Below the pieces are notes generated by a model. That model did not search any database. It was not told where the DNA came from and saw nothing but the letters and a program-made list of their open reading frames with translations. The position numbers were made by a program, and so were the translations under genes. 64,000 nt of DNA from the NCBI RefSeq assembly GCF_056746865.1, contig NZ_CM163382.1; one strand, 5' to 3'. Below, piece after piece: positions 19,258 to 63,246 of this stretch (the stretch's first letter is position 1; the number at the start of each line of letters is the position of its first letter).

Positions 19258-19935
19258 AATGCGCCTATAAGGCTCTCTTACCAGCCGCGCCCTAACAGGC
19301 GCACACGATCTGACATTTGCATCCAACTTCGTTACTTACGGCCCGTAAACGGGCTGCCCGGATAGGGAATCGATAACTGCTCTCCCATTTTATCCTCTTC
19401 AAGCTGGTGCTTTATGTAATCCTGTATCTTCGCCGTGTTCTTACCCACCGTATCGACGTAGTACCCTCTGCACCAGAACTCCCTGTTCCTGTATTTGAAT
19501 TTCAAATCACCAAACTGCTCGTAAAGCATCAGACTGCTTTTCCCTTTCAGATATCCCATAAAGCCGGATACGCTCATTTTGGGCGGGATCTCCACAAGCA
19601 TATGGATATGATCTGCACAGCATTCAGCTTCCAGAATCCGTACACTTTTCCACTCACACAGCTTTCTCAAAATACTGCCTATTGCTCTACGCTTCTCTCT
19701 GTAGAACACCTGTCTTCGGTATTTTGGCGCAAATACTATGTGATATTTACAGTTCCATCGGGTGTGCGCTAAGCTCTTTTCGTTCCCCATTGGGACCCCC
19801 TTTTGATTTCTTGTTTGACACTTGCAGTTGCCAGACCGCAAGGTGTTTTAACAAATCAAAAGGGGTTTTAATAACTGGCTTAAAGCTGAAAGCTTTCCGG
19901 AACCCCCAGCCTAGCTGGGGGTTTTCTGTGCACAA
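19258..19935 (-). mobile_element. IS200-group insertion sequence (IS200/IS605 family); boundaries approximate, about +/-40 bp
   Basis: Contains a 152-aa IS200 TnpA ORF plus upstream hairpins (cccccagcctagctggggg at 19893-19911) typical of IS200 left end; no terminal inverted repeats, as expected for this family. Confidence 0.7.
19332..19790 (-). CDS. tnpA: IS200 transposase TnpA (Y1 HUH single-strand transposase)
   Basis: 152 aa from ATG at 19790 (MGNEKSLAHTRWNCKYHIVFAPKYRR...); HIH motif and C-terminal catalytic Tyr (GYYVDTVG); near-identical to remembered Salmonella IS200 TnpA. Confidence 0.9.
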   Translation of the reverse strand: MGNEKSLAHTRWNCKYHIVFAPKYRRQVFYREKRRAIGSILRKLCEWKSVRILEAECCADHIHMLVEIPPKMSVSGFMGYLKGKSSLMLYEQFGDLKFKYRNREFWCRGYYVDTVGKNTAKIQDYIKHQLEEDKMGEQLSIPYPGSPFTGRK

Positions 19936-19985: not shown

Positions 19986-20195
19986 CCTGATGTGGCGAAA
20001 ACGCCTTATCCGCCTACAAACGCATGAAGATTCAACATGTTGCAATAGATTTTGTAGGCCTGATAAGCGTAGCGCATCAGGCATTGAGCACCTAATGCCG
20101 GATGCGTCGTGAACGCCTTATCCGGCCTACAAACGCACGAAGATTCAACATGTTGCAATAGATTTTGTAGGCCTGATGAGCGTAGCGCATCAGGC
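19986..20195. repeat. Two tandem copies of a roughly 90-bp REP-IHF-REP (RIP/BIME-like) unit downstream of exbD
   Basis: Unit gccttatccgcctacaaacgcatgaagattcaacatgttgcaatagattttgtaggcctgataagcgtagcgcatcaggca repeated with 3-4 mismatches. Confidence 0.75.
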
Positions 20196-25905: not shown

Positions 25906-26009
25906 GCTTTTTACGCCTCAAACTTTCGTTTTCGGGCATTTCGTCCAGACTTAAGTTCACAACACCTCACCGGAGCCTGCTCCGGTGAGTTCATATAAAG
26001 GAGGAACGT

Positions 26010-57599: not shown

Positions 57600-57770
57600 C
57601 GTGAGCGGGTCCATGCCCGACAGAATCGTTACTCTCTCCCATCCGGACTCTAACCGTCGGCCCCGGAATTACACCGGATCTGCTGTCCTTTGAGTTCGCA
57701 CCCAAAGCGCTCGCGGGCTTTCAACTGAGTTGATTTACCGCCGGTGGGGAATTTCGCCCCGCCCTGAGAA
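57600..57770 (-). promoter_or_regulatory. FMN riboswitch (RFN element) in the ribB leader
   Basis: Minus-strand leader contains conserved RFN segments gggcggggcgaaattccccaccggcgg ... ccgggg ... ggatgggagag upstream of ribB; boundaries approximate. Confidence 0.8.
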
Positions 57771-57896
57771 TAAGCGGATTCACTATAACGCTAATGATTA
57801 GCGCCAGCAACGCATAGCTTCACATAATTCTGGTTTATGACTTACCCTTATCGCACTACAATGGCACTCAACACCTATCAGTACAGGGAAACTACA

Positions 57897-59355: not shown

Positions 59356-61017
59356 ATGGATGATATTGTTAATTCTGTGCCCTCCTGGATGTTTACCGCA
59401 ATTATTGCCGTATGCATTCTGTTTATTATTGGAATTATTTTCGCCAGGCTCTATCGTCGCGCTTCGGCAGAGCAAGCTTTTGTTCGTACTGGTTTAGGTG
59501 GGCAAAAAGTGGTAATGAGCGGTGGCGCAATCGTGATGCCGATCTTTCATGAAATAATCCCCATCAATATGAATACCCTGAAGCTGGAAGTCAGCCGCTC
59601 AACCATTGATAGCCTGATTACGAAAGATCGTATGCGCGTCGATGTCGTGGTCGCTTTCTTTGTGCGGGTAAAACCTTCAGTTGAAGGGATTGCCACCGCC
59701 GCCCAGACGCTGGGACAACGCACCCTGTCGCCTGAAGACTTACGTATGTTGGTTGAAGATAAATTTGTCGATGCCCTCCGTGCAACAGCTGCACAAATGA
59801 CCATGCATGAGTTACAGGATACCCGCGAGAACTTCGTGCAGGGAGTACAAAATACCGTAGCTGAAGATCTGTCGAAAAACGGCCTGGAACTGGAAAGCGT
59901 TTCACTTACCAACTTTAACCAGACGTCGAAAGAACATTTCAATCCTAACAACGCCTTTGACGCCGAAGGTTTAACCAAGCTGACGCAGGAGACGGAGCGC
60001 CGTCGTCGCGAACGTAACGAAGTTGAACAGGATGTAGAAGTTGCGGTGCGTGAGAAAAACCGTGATGCGCTTTCGCGCAAGCTGGAGATTGAACAACAAG
60101 AAGCGTTTATGACGCTTGAGCAGGAGCAGCAGGTTAAAACCCGTACCGCTGAGCAGAATGCGAAAATTGCGGCTTTTGAGGCCGAGCGTCGTCGGGAAGC
60201 AGAGCAGACGCGAATTCTGGCTGAACGACAGATTCAGGAAACGGAAATCGACCGCGAACAGGCCGTCCGTTCCAGAAAAGTTGAAGCTGAACGTGAAGTT
60301 CGCATTAAAGAGATCGAACAGCAGCAGGTCACCGAAATCGCCAACCAGACGAAATCGATCGCTATTGCCGCCAAATCGGAACAGCAGTCACAAGCGGAAG
60401 CGCGTGCCAACCTTGCACTTGCAGAAGCGGTAAGCGCCCAGCAAAACGTTGAAACCACTCGCCAGACCGCAGAAGCCGATCGTGCTAAACAAGTTGCCCT
60501 AATCGCTGCCGCGCAGGACGCGGAAACCAAAGCAGTCGAACTGACCGTCCGGGCGAAAGCTGAAAAAGAAGCCGCAGAGATGCAGGCGGCGGCAATCGTT
60601 GAGTTAGCCGAAGCTACGCGTAAAAAGGGTCTGGCGGAAGCAGAAGCGCAACGTGCGCTGAACGACGCTATCAACGTACTTTCTGACGAGCAAACCAGCC
60701 TTAAATTCAAACTGGCGCTATTACAATCATTACCTGCGGTAATAGAGAAATCCGTTGAGCCGATGAAGTCCATTGACGGCATCAAGATTATTCAGGTCGA
60801 TGGATTAAACCGAGGTGGCGCTGCGGGGAATGCGGCATCAGGCAGCGTTAGTGGCGGAAACCTGGCAGAACAGGCATTGTCTGCCGCCCTTTCTTACCGC
60901 ACACAGGCACCACTGATTGACTCCTTGCTCAATGAAATCGGTGTTTCTGGCGGCTCGCTGGCGGCATTGACTTCACCCTTAACATCAACAACTCCCGTCG
61001 AAGAAAAAACAGAGTAA
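59356..61017 (+). CDS. yqiK: SPFH/band-7 (flotillin-like) membrane protein with long Ala/Glu/Arg-rich coiled coil
   Basis: 553 aa; N-terminal TM helix, SPFH domain, extended EAE/AEA-rich region. Confidence 0.9.
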   Translation: MDDIVNSVPSWMFTAIIAVCILFIIGIIFARLYRRASAEQAFVRTGLGGQKVVMSGGAIVMPIFHEIIPINMNTLKLEVSRSTIDSLITKDRMRVDVVVAFFVRVKPSVEGIATAAQTLGQRTLSPEDLRMLVEDKFVDALRATAAQMTMHELQDTRENFVQGVQNTVAEDLSKNGLELESVSLTNFNQTSKEHFNPNNAFDAEGLTKLTQETERRRRERNEVEQDVEVAVREKNRDALSRKLEIEQQEAFMTLEQEQQVKTRTAEQNAKIAAFEAERRREAEQTRILAERQIQETEIDREQAVRSRKVEAEREVRIKEIEQQQVTEIANQTKSIAIAAKSEQQSQAEARANLALAEAVSAQQNVETTRQTAEADRAKQVALIAAAQDAETKAVELTVRAKAEKEAAEMQAAAIVELAEATRKKGLAEAEAQRALNDAINVLSDEQTSLKFKLALLQSLPAVIEKSVEPMKSIDGIKIIQVDGLNRGGAAGNAASGSVSGGNLAEQALSAALSYRTQAPLIDSLLNEIGVSGGSLAALTSPLTSTTPVEEKTE

Positions 61018-61211
61018 ACCCTCTTCTATGAATAATCCCTGGCCCAAAAAGCCGGGGATTTTTTATATCTGCGTTCCGCTAAAAGGTGCAAATGATCAGG
61101 CTGTTGCAGCATTTTGCGTGACCGCTCGGGGAAGGGAAAACTGCCTCTGGGAAAGCGTTGCGCGGGGTCTGGCGCTCATCAACAATCGGGGAGTCAGCAG
61201 GGGGCTGAAAC

Positions 61212-61352
61212 GGGAAAGCCCCTCCCGAAGAAGGGGCCTTATAGAAGGAAAGGGTTATGATGAAGCTCGTCATCATACTGATTGTGTTGTTACTAGTAAG
61301 TTTCCAGGCTTATTAACAACCAATTCAGAGGGGGGAGAAATCCTCCCTTACC
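61212..61352 (-). ncRNA. sibD: Sib antisense sRNA (antitoxin), copy 1; ends approximate
   Basis: Antisense to ibs ORF; minus-strand terminator hairpin gccccttcttcgggaggggc plus T-run at about 61217-61240. Confidence 0.55.
61257..61316 (+). CDS. ibsD: Ibs type I toxin, 19 aa (MMKLVIILIVLLLVSFQAY)
   Basis: Hand-translated; hydrophobic 19-mer typical of Ibs; ggaaaggg SD-like sequence upstream. Confidence 0.7.
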   Translation: MMKLVIILIVLLLVSFQAY

Positions 61353-61588
61353 CTTGTTCCTTTACTTTAGGTTGAAAAAAAATCAGCGTCAAGAAGGTTT
61401 CTCTATCCCACATCCCTGGCCCAAAAAGCCGGGGATTTTTTATATCTGCGTTCCGCTAAAAGGTGCAAATGATCAGGCTGTTGCAGCATTTTGCGTGACG
61501 GCTCGGGGAAGGCAAAACTGCATCAGGGAAAGCATTGCGCGGGGTCTGGCGCTCATCAACAATCGGGGAGTCAGCAAGGGGCTGAAAC

Positions 61589-61729
61589 GGGAAAGCCCCT
61601 CCCGAAGAAGGGGCCTTGTATAAGGAAAGGGTTATGATGAAGCTGGTCATCATACTGATTGTGTTGTTACTCGTAAGTTTCGCAGCTTATTAACAGCCAA
61701 TCAGAGGGGGGAGAAATCCTCCCTCACCC
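61589..61729 (-). ncRNA. sibE: Sib antisense sRNA (antitoxin), copy 2; ends approximate
   Basis: Same architecture as copy 1. Confidence 0.55.
61634..61693 (+). CDS. ibsE: Ibs type I toxin, 19 aa (MMKLVIILIVLLLVSFAAY)
   Basis: Hand-translated; differs from copy 1 by Q17A. Confidence 0.7.
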   Translation: MMKLVIILIVLLLVSFAAY

Positions 61730-61812
61730 TTGTTCCTTTACTTTAGGTTGAAAAAAAAACAGCGTCAATAGGCCTGCCAGGTTCGAAGCGAGATCTGTGA
61801 ACCGCTTTCCGG

Positions 61813-63246
61813 TTAGCCTTTTTTATCCTGTTGGATCTTCTTGATGATGTTGGTCGTCGAGCAACCGTCTTCAAAGTTGAGCACCAACACTTCGCCACCG
61901 TTGGCCCAGACTTCTTTACTCCCGGCAATCTCTTCTGGTTTATAGTCGCCGCCTTTCACCAGCAGGTCTGGCAAGATCCCGGCGATCAGGCGCTGCGGCG
62001 TGTCTTCTTCAAACGACACCACCCAGTCGACCGCTTCCAGTGCACCCAGCACAATCATACGCTGCTCGAGAGGGTTAACGGGGCGGGAATCCCCTTTCAG
62101 CCGTTTGGTGGAAGCATCGCTGTTGACGGCGACAATCAAACGGTCACCCAGTTTACGGGCATTTGCCAGATAAGAGACGTGCCCGGCGTGCAGGATGTCA
62201 AAGACGCCATTGGTCATTACCACCTTTTCGCCGCGTTTACGCGCCGCCGCCACAGCAAGCTTCAGTTCCTCTTCGGTCATCACACCAAAGCCGGTATCTG
62301 CACGTCCACGTACTGCGTTTTCCAGCTCGATCGGCGAAACCGTGGATGTCCCCAGTTTGCCGACCACTACGCCTGCCGCCGCATTAGCAAAGAAGCAGGC
62401 TTCTTCCAGCGAATTACCCGCCGCCAGCGTTGCCGCCAGGACACCAATCACCGTGTCGCCCGCACCGGTAACGTCATACACTTCCTGCGCCTGAGTTGGC
62501 ATATGCAGCGGCGTTTTGCCCGGTTGCAGCAGCGACATACCCTGTTCGGAACGGGTCACTAACAGAGCCGAGAGTTCGTAATCGGCAATCAGTTTCATGC
62601 CGCGTTCAACAATCTCTTCTTCGGTCTTACATTTACCGACAACAGCTTCAAATTCCGAGAGATTCGGCGTTAACAGCGTAGCGCCGCGGTAGCGCTCAAA
62701 ATCGGTGCCTTTTGGATCAATCAGCACCGGAACGCCCGCTTTACGCGCCAGTTGGATCATCTGCTGCACGCTTGCCAGCGCACCTTTCGCGTAGTCAGAG
62801 AGCACCAGCGCGCCAATCGAACTCAGCGCCTGATTAATCCGCTCGTGCAGCGGCTGCGGATCAACCCCTTCGAAACCTTCTTCAAAATCCAGACGGATCA
62901 GCTGTTGGTTGCGGGAAAGTACCCGTAATTTGGTGATGGTCGGATGCGTCGGTACAGAAACGAAGTCGCATTTGACGTTGACGTCGGCCAGAGATTTACT
63001 CAGCGCGCGCGCTGCATCGTCAATGCCCGTCAACCCGACCAGGCGTGCATTAGCACCGAGAGAAGCGATATTCATCGCCACGTTAGCCGCGCCGCCCGGA
63101 CGTTCTTCGATGGTATTCACTTTAACCACGGGCACCGGCGCTTCCGGCGAGATACGACTGGTGGGGCCGTACCAGTAACGATCCAGCATCACATCACCAA
63201 CCACCATCACTCCTGCACGTTCAAACTCTGGCAGCGTTACTTTCAT
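61813..63246 (-). CDS. hldE: Bifunctional D-beta-D-heptose 7-phosphate kinase / D-beta-D-heptose 1-phosphate adenylyltransferase
   Basis: 477 aa; N-terminal ribokinase-like and C-terminal cytidylyltransferase-like domains. Confidence 0.95.

What the first reader, a model, noticed from the sequence alone, without database searches (positions are those of the whole stretch)
61030..61757. Two tandem ibs/sib type I toxin-antitoxin repeat units between yqiK and hldE
A roughly 350-bp unit is repeated with a 377-bp period. Each copy holds a 19-codon hydrophobic ORF (MMKLVIILIVLLLVSFQAY and ...SFAAY) of the Ibs toxin type with a terminator-bearing antisense transcript of the Sib type. The track ORFs of 65-115 aa in this interval are artefacts of the repeat. 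The two toxin copies differ by one residue (Q17A), a natural variant pair.
Basis: partly seen in the sequence, partly recalled or inferred. Interest (0 to 1): 0.5.

Follow-up and report, generated by a model that had tools for sequence, protein, structure and literature searches.

The report
Known tandem Ibs/Sib toxin-antitoxin pair
This is the well-known pair of tiny membrane-toxin genes (ibs), each silenced by its own antisense RNA (Sib), that sits between yqiK and hldE in E. coli; it is ordinary and already annotated, and the only twist is that this strain carries a different combination of alleles from the laboratory strain K-12.

Summary
Window 61035-61768 holds two tandem units: 358 shared nt, 95% identical, period 377/376.

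- **Toxin ORFs.** Each unit has a 19-codon ORF on the + strand. These are 61257-61316 (MMKLVIILIVLLLVSFQAY) and 61634-61693 (...SFAAY).
- **Antisense RNAs.** Each unit has a full-length Rfam SIB_RNA match on the - strand, at 142.5 and 150.2 bits against a gathering score of 56. Each match has a sigma-70-like promoter and a terminator hairpin.
- **Source.** The window is 100% identical over 4 kb to E. coli 2017C-4173W12. RefSeq already annotates both ORFs there as Ibs family toxins. The flanks are yqiK and hldE, as at K-12 sibD/ibsD-sibE/ibsE.

By sequence, the hldE-proximal unit encodes the K-12 IbsD peptide (19/19), not IbsE (...SFPTY). The yqiK-proximal unit is a Q17 allele. No IbsE-type unit is present.

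This [Q17][IbsD-type] arrangement occurs in about 134 of 5,426 complete E. coli genomes, including strains 042 and ST69. About 3,930 genomes have a K-12-type junction.

The two Sib RNAs differ at the nucleotides known to set Sib target specificity (TRD1, TRD2). They are therefore probably not interchangeable, but this is inferred.

The 65-115-aa ORFs are spurious.

Verdict: already known, low interest.

The parts
59356..61017 (+). yqiK (flotillin family protein), upstream flank
   Evidence: ORF list. RefSeq annotation of the identical genome. The K-12 yqiK end maps to 61017.
61034..61060 (+). Terminator-like hairpin plus T-run after yqiK. It forms the first element of repeat unit 1.
   Evidence: Terminator scan: 10-pair stem with 6 GC pairs, then TTTTATATCT.
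61035..61392 (.). Repeat unit 1 (yqiK-proximal, positional sibD/ibsD). A Q17-type unit.
   Evidence: It is 95.0% identical to K-12 unit 1 and 93.0% to K-12 unit 2.
61158..61186 (+). Inferred weak ibs1 promoter (TTGCGC, 17 nt, AACAAT). The transcription start is about 61193.
   Evidence: My reading of the sequence. The +1 is placed from Han et al. 2010: their pBAD-ibsD insert runs from -21 to +165, and its forward primer GCGCTCATCAACAATCG begins at window 61172. The consensus scan did not report this promoter, so it is inferred.
61257..61316 (+). ibs1 ORF, 19 codons plus stop: MMKLVIILIVLLLVSFQAY (RefSeq WP_071528379.1). The Shine-Dalgarno-like AAGGAAAGGG ends 3 nt before the ATG.
61213..61357 (-). 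Sib1 antisense RNA (145 nt), fully overlapping ibs1. Its terminator hairpin is at 61215-61240.
   Evidence: Rfam RF00113 match at 142.5 bits. Ends mapped from the MG1655 sibD annotation. Fold of a slightly longer stretch (61213-61362, 150 nt) gives -57.9 kcal/mol with z = -4.9. Terminator helix located.
61364..61392 (-). Sib1 promoter: TTGACG, 17 nt, TAAAGT.
   Evidence: Promoter scan, 9 of 12 matches. The +1 at 61357 lies 7 nt downstream of the -10 hexamer.
61393..61411 (.). 19-nt spacer between the units (GAAGGTTTCTCTATCCCAC). It differs from the K-12 spacer (GAAGGTTTCATTAACACAT).
61412..61768 (.). Repeat unit 2 (hldE-proximal, positional sibE/ibsE). By sequence it is an IbsD-type unit.
   Evidence: It is 96.9% identical to K-12 unit 1, 97.5% to the single unit of MS16-3, and 93.0% to K-12 unit 2.
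61412..61436 (+). Second copy of the terminator-like hairpin. It lies downstream of ibs1 and is the first element of unit 2.
61634..61693 (+). ibs2 ORF, 19 codons plus stop: MMKLVIILIVLLLVSFAAY. This is identical to K-12 IbsD (RefSeq WP_001387081.1).
61590..61733 (-). Sib2 antisense RNA (144 nt), fully overlapping ibs2. Its terminator hairpin is at 61592-61617.
   Evidence: Rfam RF00113 match at 150.2 bits. Ends mapped from the MG1655 sibE annotation. Fold of a slightly longer stretch (61590-61738, 149 nt) gives -58.6 kcal/mol with z = -5.7. Terminator helix located.
61740..61768 (-). Sib2 promoter: TTGACG, 17 nt, TAAAGT.
61813..63246 (-). hldE (formerly rfaE), downstream flank.

Best explanation
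The interval is the yqiK-hldE copy of the E. coli Ibs/Sib type I toxin-antitoxin array (the old QUAD/SIB repeat). Here it is a two-unit allele.

**How each unit works.** This mechanism comes from work on K-12 SibC/ibsC and SibD/ibsD. It was not tested here.
1. A weak promoter makes an ibs mRNA of about 160 nt on the + strand. It encodes a 19-residue hydrophobic inner-membrane peptide.
2. A strong promoter on the - strand makes a structured Sib RNA of about 145 nt, fully complementary to that mRNA.
3. Sib contacts its own mRNA through two recognition domains. TRD1 targets codons ~11-18 of the ORF. TRD2 targets the ribosome-binding site and start codon.
4. Pairing spreads from these contacts, translation is blocked, and the duplex is degraded (RNase III cleaves it in vitro).
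5. If Sib is lost, the Ibs peptide accumulates, depolarises the membrane and lowers ATP. A Salmonella homologue from the same locus inhibits the Fo sector of ATP synthase.

**What is specific to this strain.** Unit 2 encodes the K-12 IbsD peptide. Its Sib RNA has the SibD-type TRD1 and the SibE-type TRD2. Unit 1 encodes a Q17 allele whose TRD1 matches neither K-12 SibD nor K-12 SibE. The two units differ at exactly the specificity-determining nucleotides, so each Sib probably silences only its own ibs. This last step is inferred.
For: **Shown here.**
- Tandem repeat of 358 nt at 95% identity.
- Two full-length RF00113 matches, 142.5 and 150.2 bits against a gathering score of 56.
- Sib promoters TTGACG-17-TAAAGT. 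Only 2 promoter-like sites were found in the region, against 0.7 expected.
- Stable Sib folds with 11-pair terminator hairpins, z = -4.9 and -5.7.
- 100% identity over 4,001 nt to NZ_CP030768.1, where both ORFs are annotated as Ibs family toxins.
- Synteny and 94% identity with K-12 sibD/ibsD-sibE/ibsE.
- The Ibs2 peptide is identical to K-12 IbsD. Ibs1 matches it at 18 of 19 residues, and Q17 is the native residue of K-12 IbsA.
- Homology to K-12 sibA/sibB covers exactly the transcript core, 61194-61354.
- The Sib1/Sib2 differences (positions 9, 32, 38, 49-52, 62, 89, 113, 116) fall at the same hot spots as K-12 SibD/SibE differences.
- Non-cognate TRD1 duplexes have 4 mismatches and about -22 kcal/mol, against about -38 for cognate duplexes. 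This is similar to the K-12 D/E pair, with 5 mismatches and -16.5 to -18.4.

**From the literature.**
- Sib RNAs are about 140 nt and repress only their cognate ibs mRNA. TRD1 and TRD2 set the specificity. A 3-nt change at SibC 49-51, which is codon 17, helps switch specificity from ibsC to ibsD (PMC2943612).
- IbsC depolarises the membrane (PMC8309996).
- The Salmonella Ibs from the yqiK-rfaE locus inhibits Fo (bioRxiv 10.1101/2025.05.26.656083).
Against:
- The NCBIfam HMM library gave no Ibs hit. It also failed on the K-12 IbsE control, so the test is uninformative.
- The ibs promoter is weak. The consensus scan did not detect it.
- Whether the two pairs are independent of each other is inferred only from mismatch patterns. 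It rests on analogy with SibC/SibD experiments.
Confidence: 0.93

Rival explanations
1. The two pairs are redundant rather than independent. At 95% identity, either Sib RNA can silence both ibs mRNAs, so the array behaves as one system with doubled dosage.
For: The units are closer to each other (95.2%) than K-12 units D and E are (90.8%). Outside the TRDs there are identical runs of 23-28 nt. K-12 ibsA is reported to be recognised by non-cognate Sib RNAs (PMC2943612).
Against: TRD1 differs at 4 of 23 nt, with a longest identical run of 9. These include all three bases of codon 17, the position used experimentally to switch SibC to SibD specificity. TRD2 differs at 2 of 17 nt. Non-cognate TRD1 duplex energy is about 15 kcal/mol weaker than cognate, close to the non-cross-reacting K-12 D/E pair.
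Confidence: 0.3
2. One of the two units is a decaying, non-functional duplicate.
For: About a quarter of complete E. coli genomes (5,426 minus 4,088) lack the unit-unit junction, and sampled examples carry a single unit. So one unit is dispensable.
Against: Both units keep an intact start codon, Shine-Dalgarno sequence, 19-codon frame, Sib promoter hexamers and terminator hairpin. Both score far above the Rfam gathering threshold over all 147 model positions. The haplotype is identical in independent strains, namely 2017C-4173W12, ST69 and, by its annotated proteins, 042.
Confidence: 0.05
3. The longer ORFs in the interval are real protein genes and the 19-codon ORFs are incidental. The longer ORFs are 115 aa at 61028-61375 (+), 89 aa at 61354-61623 (+), and 65 aa at 61079-61276 (-) and 61456-61653 (-).
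For: They exist as open frames. The 65-aa frame is also open in MS16-3.
Against: RefSeq does not annotate them in any of the genomes inspected. They have no significant NCBIfam hit. The 115-aa and 89-aa frames are broken or absent in K-12 and MS16-3. The 65-aa frame is lost in K-12 unit 1 by a 1-nt insertion and altered in K-12 unit 2. For the Salmonella orthologous locus, a 65-aa annotation was shown experimentally to be wrong, and the 19-aa product is the one made.
Confidence: 0.02

Closest known systems
E. coli K-12 sibD/ibsD-sibE/ibsE (b4447/b4664, b4611/b4666), between yqiK and hldE (rfaE)
   Same: The flanking genes, the two-unit tandem architecture, the unit length and the strand layout are the same. 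The Sib promoter and terminator are also the same. Identity is 94% over 829 aligned nt (782/829). The Ibs2 peptide is identical to K-12 IbsD.
   Different: The allele content and order differ. K-12 is [IbsD-type][IbsE-type], and the window is [Q17-type][IbsD-type]. No ...SFPTY (IbsE) peptide is present. Window Sib2 combines the SibD TRD1 with the SibE TRD2. The inter-unit spacer differs.
E. coli 042 and ST69 O15:H18 yqiK-hldE arrays (RefSeq WP_071528379.1 + WP_001387081.1)
   Same: These carry the same two Ibs proteins in the same order. The ST69 units are 100% identical to the window's units.
   Different: Nothing differs in the repeat units compared. The window simply belongs to this haplotype. 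About 134 of 5,426 complete genomes have the same junction at 99% identity or more.
K-12 SibC/ibsC, the experimentally dissected member
   Same: It belongs to the same RNA family and has the same 19-aa MM+hydrophobic+SF.AY peptide type. The same TRD1/TRD2 logic is assumed to apply.
   Different: It is a single unit at a different locus.
Salmonella Typhimurium ibsA/sibA at yqiK-rfaE
   Same: It is the orthologous intergenic region. It holds a 19-aa Ibs toxin with an antisense Sib RNA.
   Different: It is a single unit. Its peptide has His3, which that study reports as required for activity, whereas the window peptides have Lys3.

Membership tests
Sib antitoxin RNA (Rfam RF00113 SIB_RNA) | Sequence and structure match the family covariance model above the curated gathering score | tested here: met
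   142.5 bits (61242-61392, -) and 150.2 bits (61619-61768, -) against a gathering score of 56. Model positions 1-147 of 147 are matched.
Sib antitoxin RNA (Rfam RF00113 SIB_RNA) | Encoded antisense to a short ibs ORF and fully overlapping it | tested here: met
   Sib1 at 61213-61357 (-) covers ibs1 at 61257-61316 (+). Sib2 at 61590-61733 (-) covers ibs2 at 61634-61693 (+).
Sib antitoxin RNA (Rfam RF00113 SIB_RNA) | Own promoter and intrinsic terminator, giving an RNA of about 140 nt | tested here: met
   TTGACG-17-TAAAGT lies 7 nt upstream of the mapped +1. An 11-pair GC-rich hairpin with a UUCG loop is followed by UUU. Predicted lengths are 145 and 144 nt by transfer of the MG1655 annotation. 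This is sequence-level evidence only.
Sib antitoxin RNA (Rfam RF00113 SIB_RNA) | Transcript detected, and represses the cognate ibs mRNA | not testable with these tools
   No expression data are available. Repression is shown for K-12 SibC and SibD in PMC2943612.
Ibs type I toxin | Peptide of 18-19 residues, strongly hydrophobic, homologous to K-12 IbsA-E | tested here: met
   Ibs2 matches K-12 IbsD at 19 of 19 residues. Ibs1 matches at 18 of 19, and its Q17 is also found in K-12 IbsA (MMKHVIILVILLVISFQAY). RefSeq names both 'Ibs family toxin'.
Ibs type I toxin | Match to a curated protein-family HMM | tested here: inconclusive
   NCBIfam gave no Ibs model hit for either window peptide. It gave none for the K-12 IbsE control either. 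Pfam scan, cluster look-up and contig look-up do not accept 19-aa queries.
Ibs type I toxin | Toxic (membrane depolarisation or growth arrest) on induction | not testable with these tools
   The identical IbsD peptide was lethal in the absence of SibD in K-12 co-transformation assays (PMC2943612). The Q17 allele is untested.
Sequence-level orthology to K-12 ibsD (unit 1) and ibsE (unit 2) | Same locus and same order between yqiK and hldE | tested here: met
Sequence-level orthology to K-12 ibsD (unit 1) and ibsE (unit 2) | Unit 2 is closest to K-12 unit 2 and encodes the IbsE peptide (...LLLLSFPTY) | tested here: not met
   Window unit 2 is 96.9% identical to K-12 unit 1 but 93.0% to K-12 unit 2. 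It encodes the IbsD peptide. Its TRD1 equals SibD's and its TRD2 equals SibE's.

The most novel reading that the evidence does not exclude
The Q17 unit may be a distinct, sixth Sib/Ibs specificity class. Its TRD1 is 4 mismatches from both K-12 SibD and K-12 SibE. It would have arisen by recombination or gene conversion among tandem units. Under this reading, the yqiK-hldE array is a small cassette system in which E. coli lineages hold different combinations of mutually independent toxin-antitoxin pairs. The combinations seen are [D][E], [Q][D], [D] alone and [Q] alone. Selection would keep divergence concentrated in the two recognition domains. The units sampled here have a mosaic pattern of variable sites, which is compatible with this reading.
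Probability: 0.4. Interest if true: 0.25.

Novelty: already known. Interest (0 to 1): 0.1.

Why it matters
It matters little beyond correct annotation. The locus is a textbook type I toxin-antitoxin array, and both peptides already have RefSeq accessions.

The practical points are these:
- Positional naming (ibsD, ibsE) does not track sequence type across E. coli lineages.
- Gene callers can still produce spurious 65-115-aa ORFs here.
- The natural [Q17][A17] pair differs at the known specificity nucleotides. It could serve as a ready-made test of the rules by which antisense RNAs tell near-identical targets apart.

Tried and rejected
1. **NCBIfam scan of the peptides**, extended by the in-frame upstream codons to reach 20 aa. 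No Ibs hit, and none for the K-12 IbsE control, so the test is uninformative.
2. **The listing of cluster members with the 19-aa peptides.** Pfam scan and contig look-up have the same length limits, so I did not try them.
3. **The primary discovery paper** (Fozo et al. 2008, requested as PMC2597788). It is not held in the library. I relied on Han et al. 2010, Fozo et al. 2010, a 2021 review and a 2025 preprint instead.
4. **Hypothesis of an ancestral three-unit [Q][D][E] array with differential loss.**
   - A synthetic three-unit query returned no genome holding all three units.
   - A concatenated two-junction query gave the same negative result.
   - The top '3-piece' hits turned out to be ordinary two-unit arrays.
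   - The 15 genomes with two junction matches could not be listed, so rare three-unit arrays are not excluded.
5. **Mobile-element origin.** Only 15 of 72,556 plasmid records match, and 3 of 50,697 phage records. Most of these are chromosome-sized, mislabelled or fragmentary records. The element is chromosomal.
6. **Literature search for the peptide tail 'SFQAY'.** No paper found.
7. **The 22-nt similarity between the yqiK 3' end (60997-61018) and the Sib promoter region** (77-82% identity). It is A-rich and short, so I treated it as probably chance.

Full report

Yes. The repeat finder reports two direct-repeat families in register. The first is 61035-61324 / 61412-61701 (290 nt, 95%). The second is 61325-61392 / 61701-61768 (68 nt, 97%). 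The spacings are 377 and 376 nt. So a 358-nt unit is repeated once, with a single 1-nt indel and a 19-nt spacer at 61393-61411. My alignment gives 340/357 identical positions, or 95.2%. A BLAST of unit 1 against the whole 64-kb window finds only these two copies.

The two 19-codon ORFs lie at 61257-61316 and 61634-61693 on the + strand.

**2. What is it?**

*RNA family.* Rfam's SIB_RNA model (RF00113) matches the - strand of both units over all 147 model positions. The scores are 142.5 bits (61242-61392) and 150.2 bits (61619-61768), against a gathering score of 56. The weak + strand matches (35-38 bits, below threshold) reflect the partial self-complementarity of the element. They are not separate genes.

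*Source genome and annotation.* The window is 100% identical over 4,001 nt to E. coli 2017C-4173W12 (NZ_CP030768.1). RefSeq annotates the two ORFs there as 'type I toxin-antitoxin system Ibs family toxin' (WP_071528379.1 and WP_001387081.1). They lie between yqiK and hldE. In MG1655 the same interval holds sibD/ibsD and sibE/ibsE.

*Transferred coordinates.* Aligning MG1655 to the window (782/829 identical) transfers the annotated ends:
- Sib1 = 61213-61357 (-), 145 nt
- Sib2 = 61590-61733 (-), 144 nt
- yqiK ends at 61017
- hldE ends at 61813

*Sib promoter, terminator and fold.* Each Sib start lies 7 nt downstream of a TTGACG-17-TAAAGT promoter-like site. These were the only two promoter-like sites found in 1 kb, against 0.7 expected. 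Each Sib RNA ends in an 11-pair hairpin with a UUCG loop followed by UUU. The RNAs fold well below shuffled controls, at -57.9 and -58.6 kcal/mol with z = -4.9 and -5.7.

*The ibs mRNA.* Han et al. cloned ibsD from -21 to +165 relative to its transcription start, with a primer that begins at window 61172. This places the ibs1 start at about 61193 and its end opposite the Sib1 start (61357). The matching ibs2 start is about 61570. A weak TTGCGC-17-AACAAT promoter upstream is my inference, and the scan did not flag it.

*Family core versus local array.* Homology to the K-12 sibA and sibB units covers only 61194-61354, at 79-80% identity. So the family-wide core is exactly the overlapping transcript pair. 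The 160 nt upstream is specific to this tandem array. It includes a terminator-like hairpin at 61034-61060, duplicated at 61412-61436.

**3. The long ORFs**

The frames of 115, 89 and 65 aa (the last occurring twice) are not genes.
- RefSeq does not annotate them in any genome I inspected.
- They have no significant family hit.
- They are interrupted or absent in K-12 and MS16-3. For example, a 1-nt insertion in K-12 unit 1 shifts the frame.
- At the orthologous Salmonella locus, a 65-aa annotation was shown experimentally to be wrong. Only the 19-aa peptide is made.

**4. A correction: which alleles are these?**

The K-12 peptides are IbsD MMKLVIILIVLLLVSFAAY and IbsE MMKLVIILVVLLLLSFPTY. The window's second (hldE-proximal) unit therefore encodes the IbsD peptide, not IbsE. 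At DNA level its identities are:

| Window unit 2 compared with | Identity |
|---|---|
| K-12 unit 1 | 96.9% |
| Single unit of strain MS16-3 | 97.5% |
| K-12 unit 2 | 93.0% |

The first unit carries Q17, which is the native residue of K-12 IbsA (...SFQAY). Its variable sites are a mosaic. Some are shared with D-type units, some with E-type units, and a few are unique.

The arrangements across 11 genomes other than the window's own source genome, 2017C-4173W12, which is [Q17][D]:

| Arrangement | Strains |
|---|---|
| [D][E] | K-12, O157:H7 (two strains), 2018-01-1CC, A1.S1.160, 07_3722, U1 |
| [Q17][D] | ST69 O15:H18, E. coli 042 |
| Single [D] | MS16-3 |
| Single [Q17] | ECCWS199 |

Counts over the 5,426 complete E. 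coli genomes:
- 4,088 contain a unit-unit junction, meaning two units. 134 of these match the window's junction at 99% or more, and about 3,930 match at 90-95%, the band in which the K-12-type junction falls (92.9%).
- 177 carry the Q17 core at 99% or more.

So the window's haplotype is a minority allele, about 2.5% of genomes, but it is well represented and already sequenced and annotated. I looked for a three-unit [Q][D][E] array that could be ancestral to all forms and found none.

**5. How it most likely works**

The mechanism is taken from K-12 work, not tested here.
- Sib RNAs of about 140 nt are fully complementary to their ibs mRNAs. They repress only the cognate one, with ibsA as the exception.
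- SibC recognises ibsC through TRD1 (nt 46-68, target inside the ORF) and TRD2 (nt 99-115, target at the translation initiation region).
- Pairing spreads from these sites, and RNase III cleaves the duplex in vitro.
- Replacing SibC G49CU51 by UGC, and the TRD2 bases by those of SibD, redirects SibC to ibsD (PMC2943612).
- Overproduced IbsC depolarises the membrane within minutes (PMC8309996).
- The Salmonella Ibs encoded at this same yqiK-rfaE locus binds the a and b subunits of Fo and lowers ATP (preprint).

Applying this to the window gives the following.
- Positions 49-51 of SibC are the antisense of codon 17. That is the very codon where the two window units differ, at all three bases (CAG versus GCA).
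- The ten differing alignment columns between Sib1 and Sib2 fall at Sib2 positions 9, 32, 38, 49-52, 62, 89, 113 and 116. These are the same hot spots where K-12 SibD and SibE differ.
- In TRD1 the non-cognate pairs have 4 mismatches, a longest perfect run of 9 nt, and about -22 kcal/mol against about -38 for cognate pairs.
- The non-cross-reacting K-12 D/E pair has 5 mismatches, a run of 8 nt, and -16.5 to -18.4 kcal/mol.
- Sib2 carries the TRD1 of SibD and the TRD2 of SibE. Sib1 has a TRD1 not seen in SibD or SibE, and a TRD2 one mismatch from SibD's.

I therefore infer, at about 60-70% confidence, that the two pairs act independently of each other. The rival is that they cross-protect, which I put at about 30%.

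**6. Comparison with what is known, and novelty**

Every defining sequence feature of the Sib RNA family and of Ibs toxins that I could test is met. Expression, repression and toxicity cannot be tested with these tools. The one membership claim that fails is sequence-level orthology of unit 2 to ibsE.

The element is chromosomal. It is essentially absent from plasmid and phage collections. This agrees with Fozo et al. 2010, who also describe tandem duplication of ibs-sib loci and variation in copy number between strains.

Nothing here is new in kind. The locus, the family, the mechanism and even these exact peptide sequences are already in public annotation.

**7. Verdict**

Novelty is 'already known' and interest is low (0.1). 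The most novel reading still open is that the Q17 unit is an additional, independent specificity class generated by recombination within the array. It would be a modest finding even if true.

Noticed in passing
window 61035-61768; loci L002-L014: Copy number and allele content of the yqiK-hldE array vary between E. coli lineages. The forms seen are [D][E], [Q17][D], single [D] and single [Q17]. 4,088 of 5,426 complete genomes have two units. The variable sites of the units form a mosaic, which suggests unequal crossover or gene conversion between units.
   Followed up: partly
E. coli genome collection: Fifteen genomes gave two separate matches to the 70-nt unit-unit junction query. They might hold three-unit arrays. 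The candidate three-piece hits I inspected were ordinary two-unit arrays.
   Followed up: partly
window 61034-61060 and 61412-61436 (+): The terminator-like hairpin that follows yqiK is itself the first element of the repeat unit, so its second copy sits just downstream of ibs1. The 160 nt between this hairpin and the ibs transcription start are as conserved as the transcript core, but the sibA/sibB units do not share them. Their role is unknown.
   Followed up: partly
window 60997-61018 vs 61371-61392 and 61747-61768: The last 22 nt of yqiK (GTCGAAGAAAAAACAGAGTAAA) resemble the Sib -35 region (GTTGAAAAAAAATCAGCGTCAA) at 77-82% identity. This is either a degenerate remnant of a further unit or an A-rich chance match.
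   Followed up: no
window 61800-61814 (+): A terminator-like hairpin with a T-run on the + strand overlaps the hldE stop codon (61813-61815). It could end read-through transcripts from ibs2.
   Followed up: no
window 57627-57775 (-): FMN riboswitch (RF00050, 120.9 bits), upstream of the yqiJ-yqiK region.
   Followed up: no
window 19800-19923 (-), 25908-25971 (+), 8300-8376 (both strands), 20057-20127 (-): Other Rfam matches above the gathering score: STnc490 (146 bits), ES173 (99 bits), and naRNA4 elements at two sites (60-93 bits).
   Followed up: no
L002 1715-1918 (K-12 unit 1): In K-12 a TTG-started 67-aa ORF runs in frame into ibsD. The same kind of upstream extension led to the 65-aa misannotation of the Salmonella gene. 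In the window a TAG at 61242-61244 closes this frame 4 codons before the ATG.
   Followed up: yes
NCBIfam library: The NCBIfam HMM set returns no Ibs model for 19-aa Ibs peptides, even for K-12 IbsE. The RefSeq name 'Ibs family toxin' must therefore come from another kind of rule. HMM screens will miss this family.
   Followed up: no
plasmid collection hits H171, H172, H174: Several PLSDB 'plasmid' records that carry this locus are 4.8-4.9 Mb long. They are evidently chromosomes filed as plasmids.
   Followed up: no
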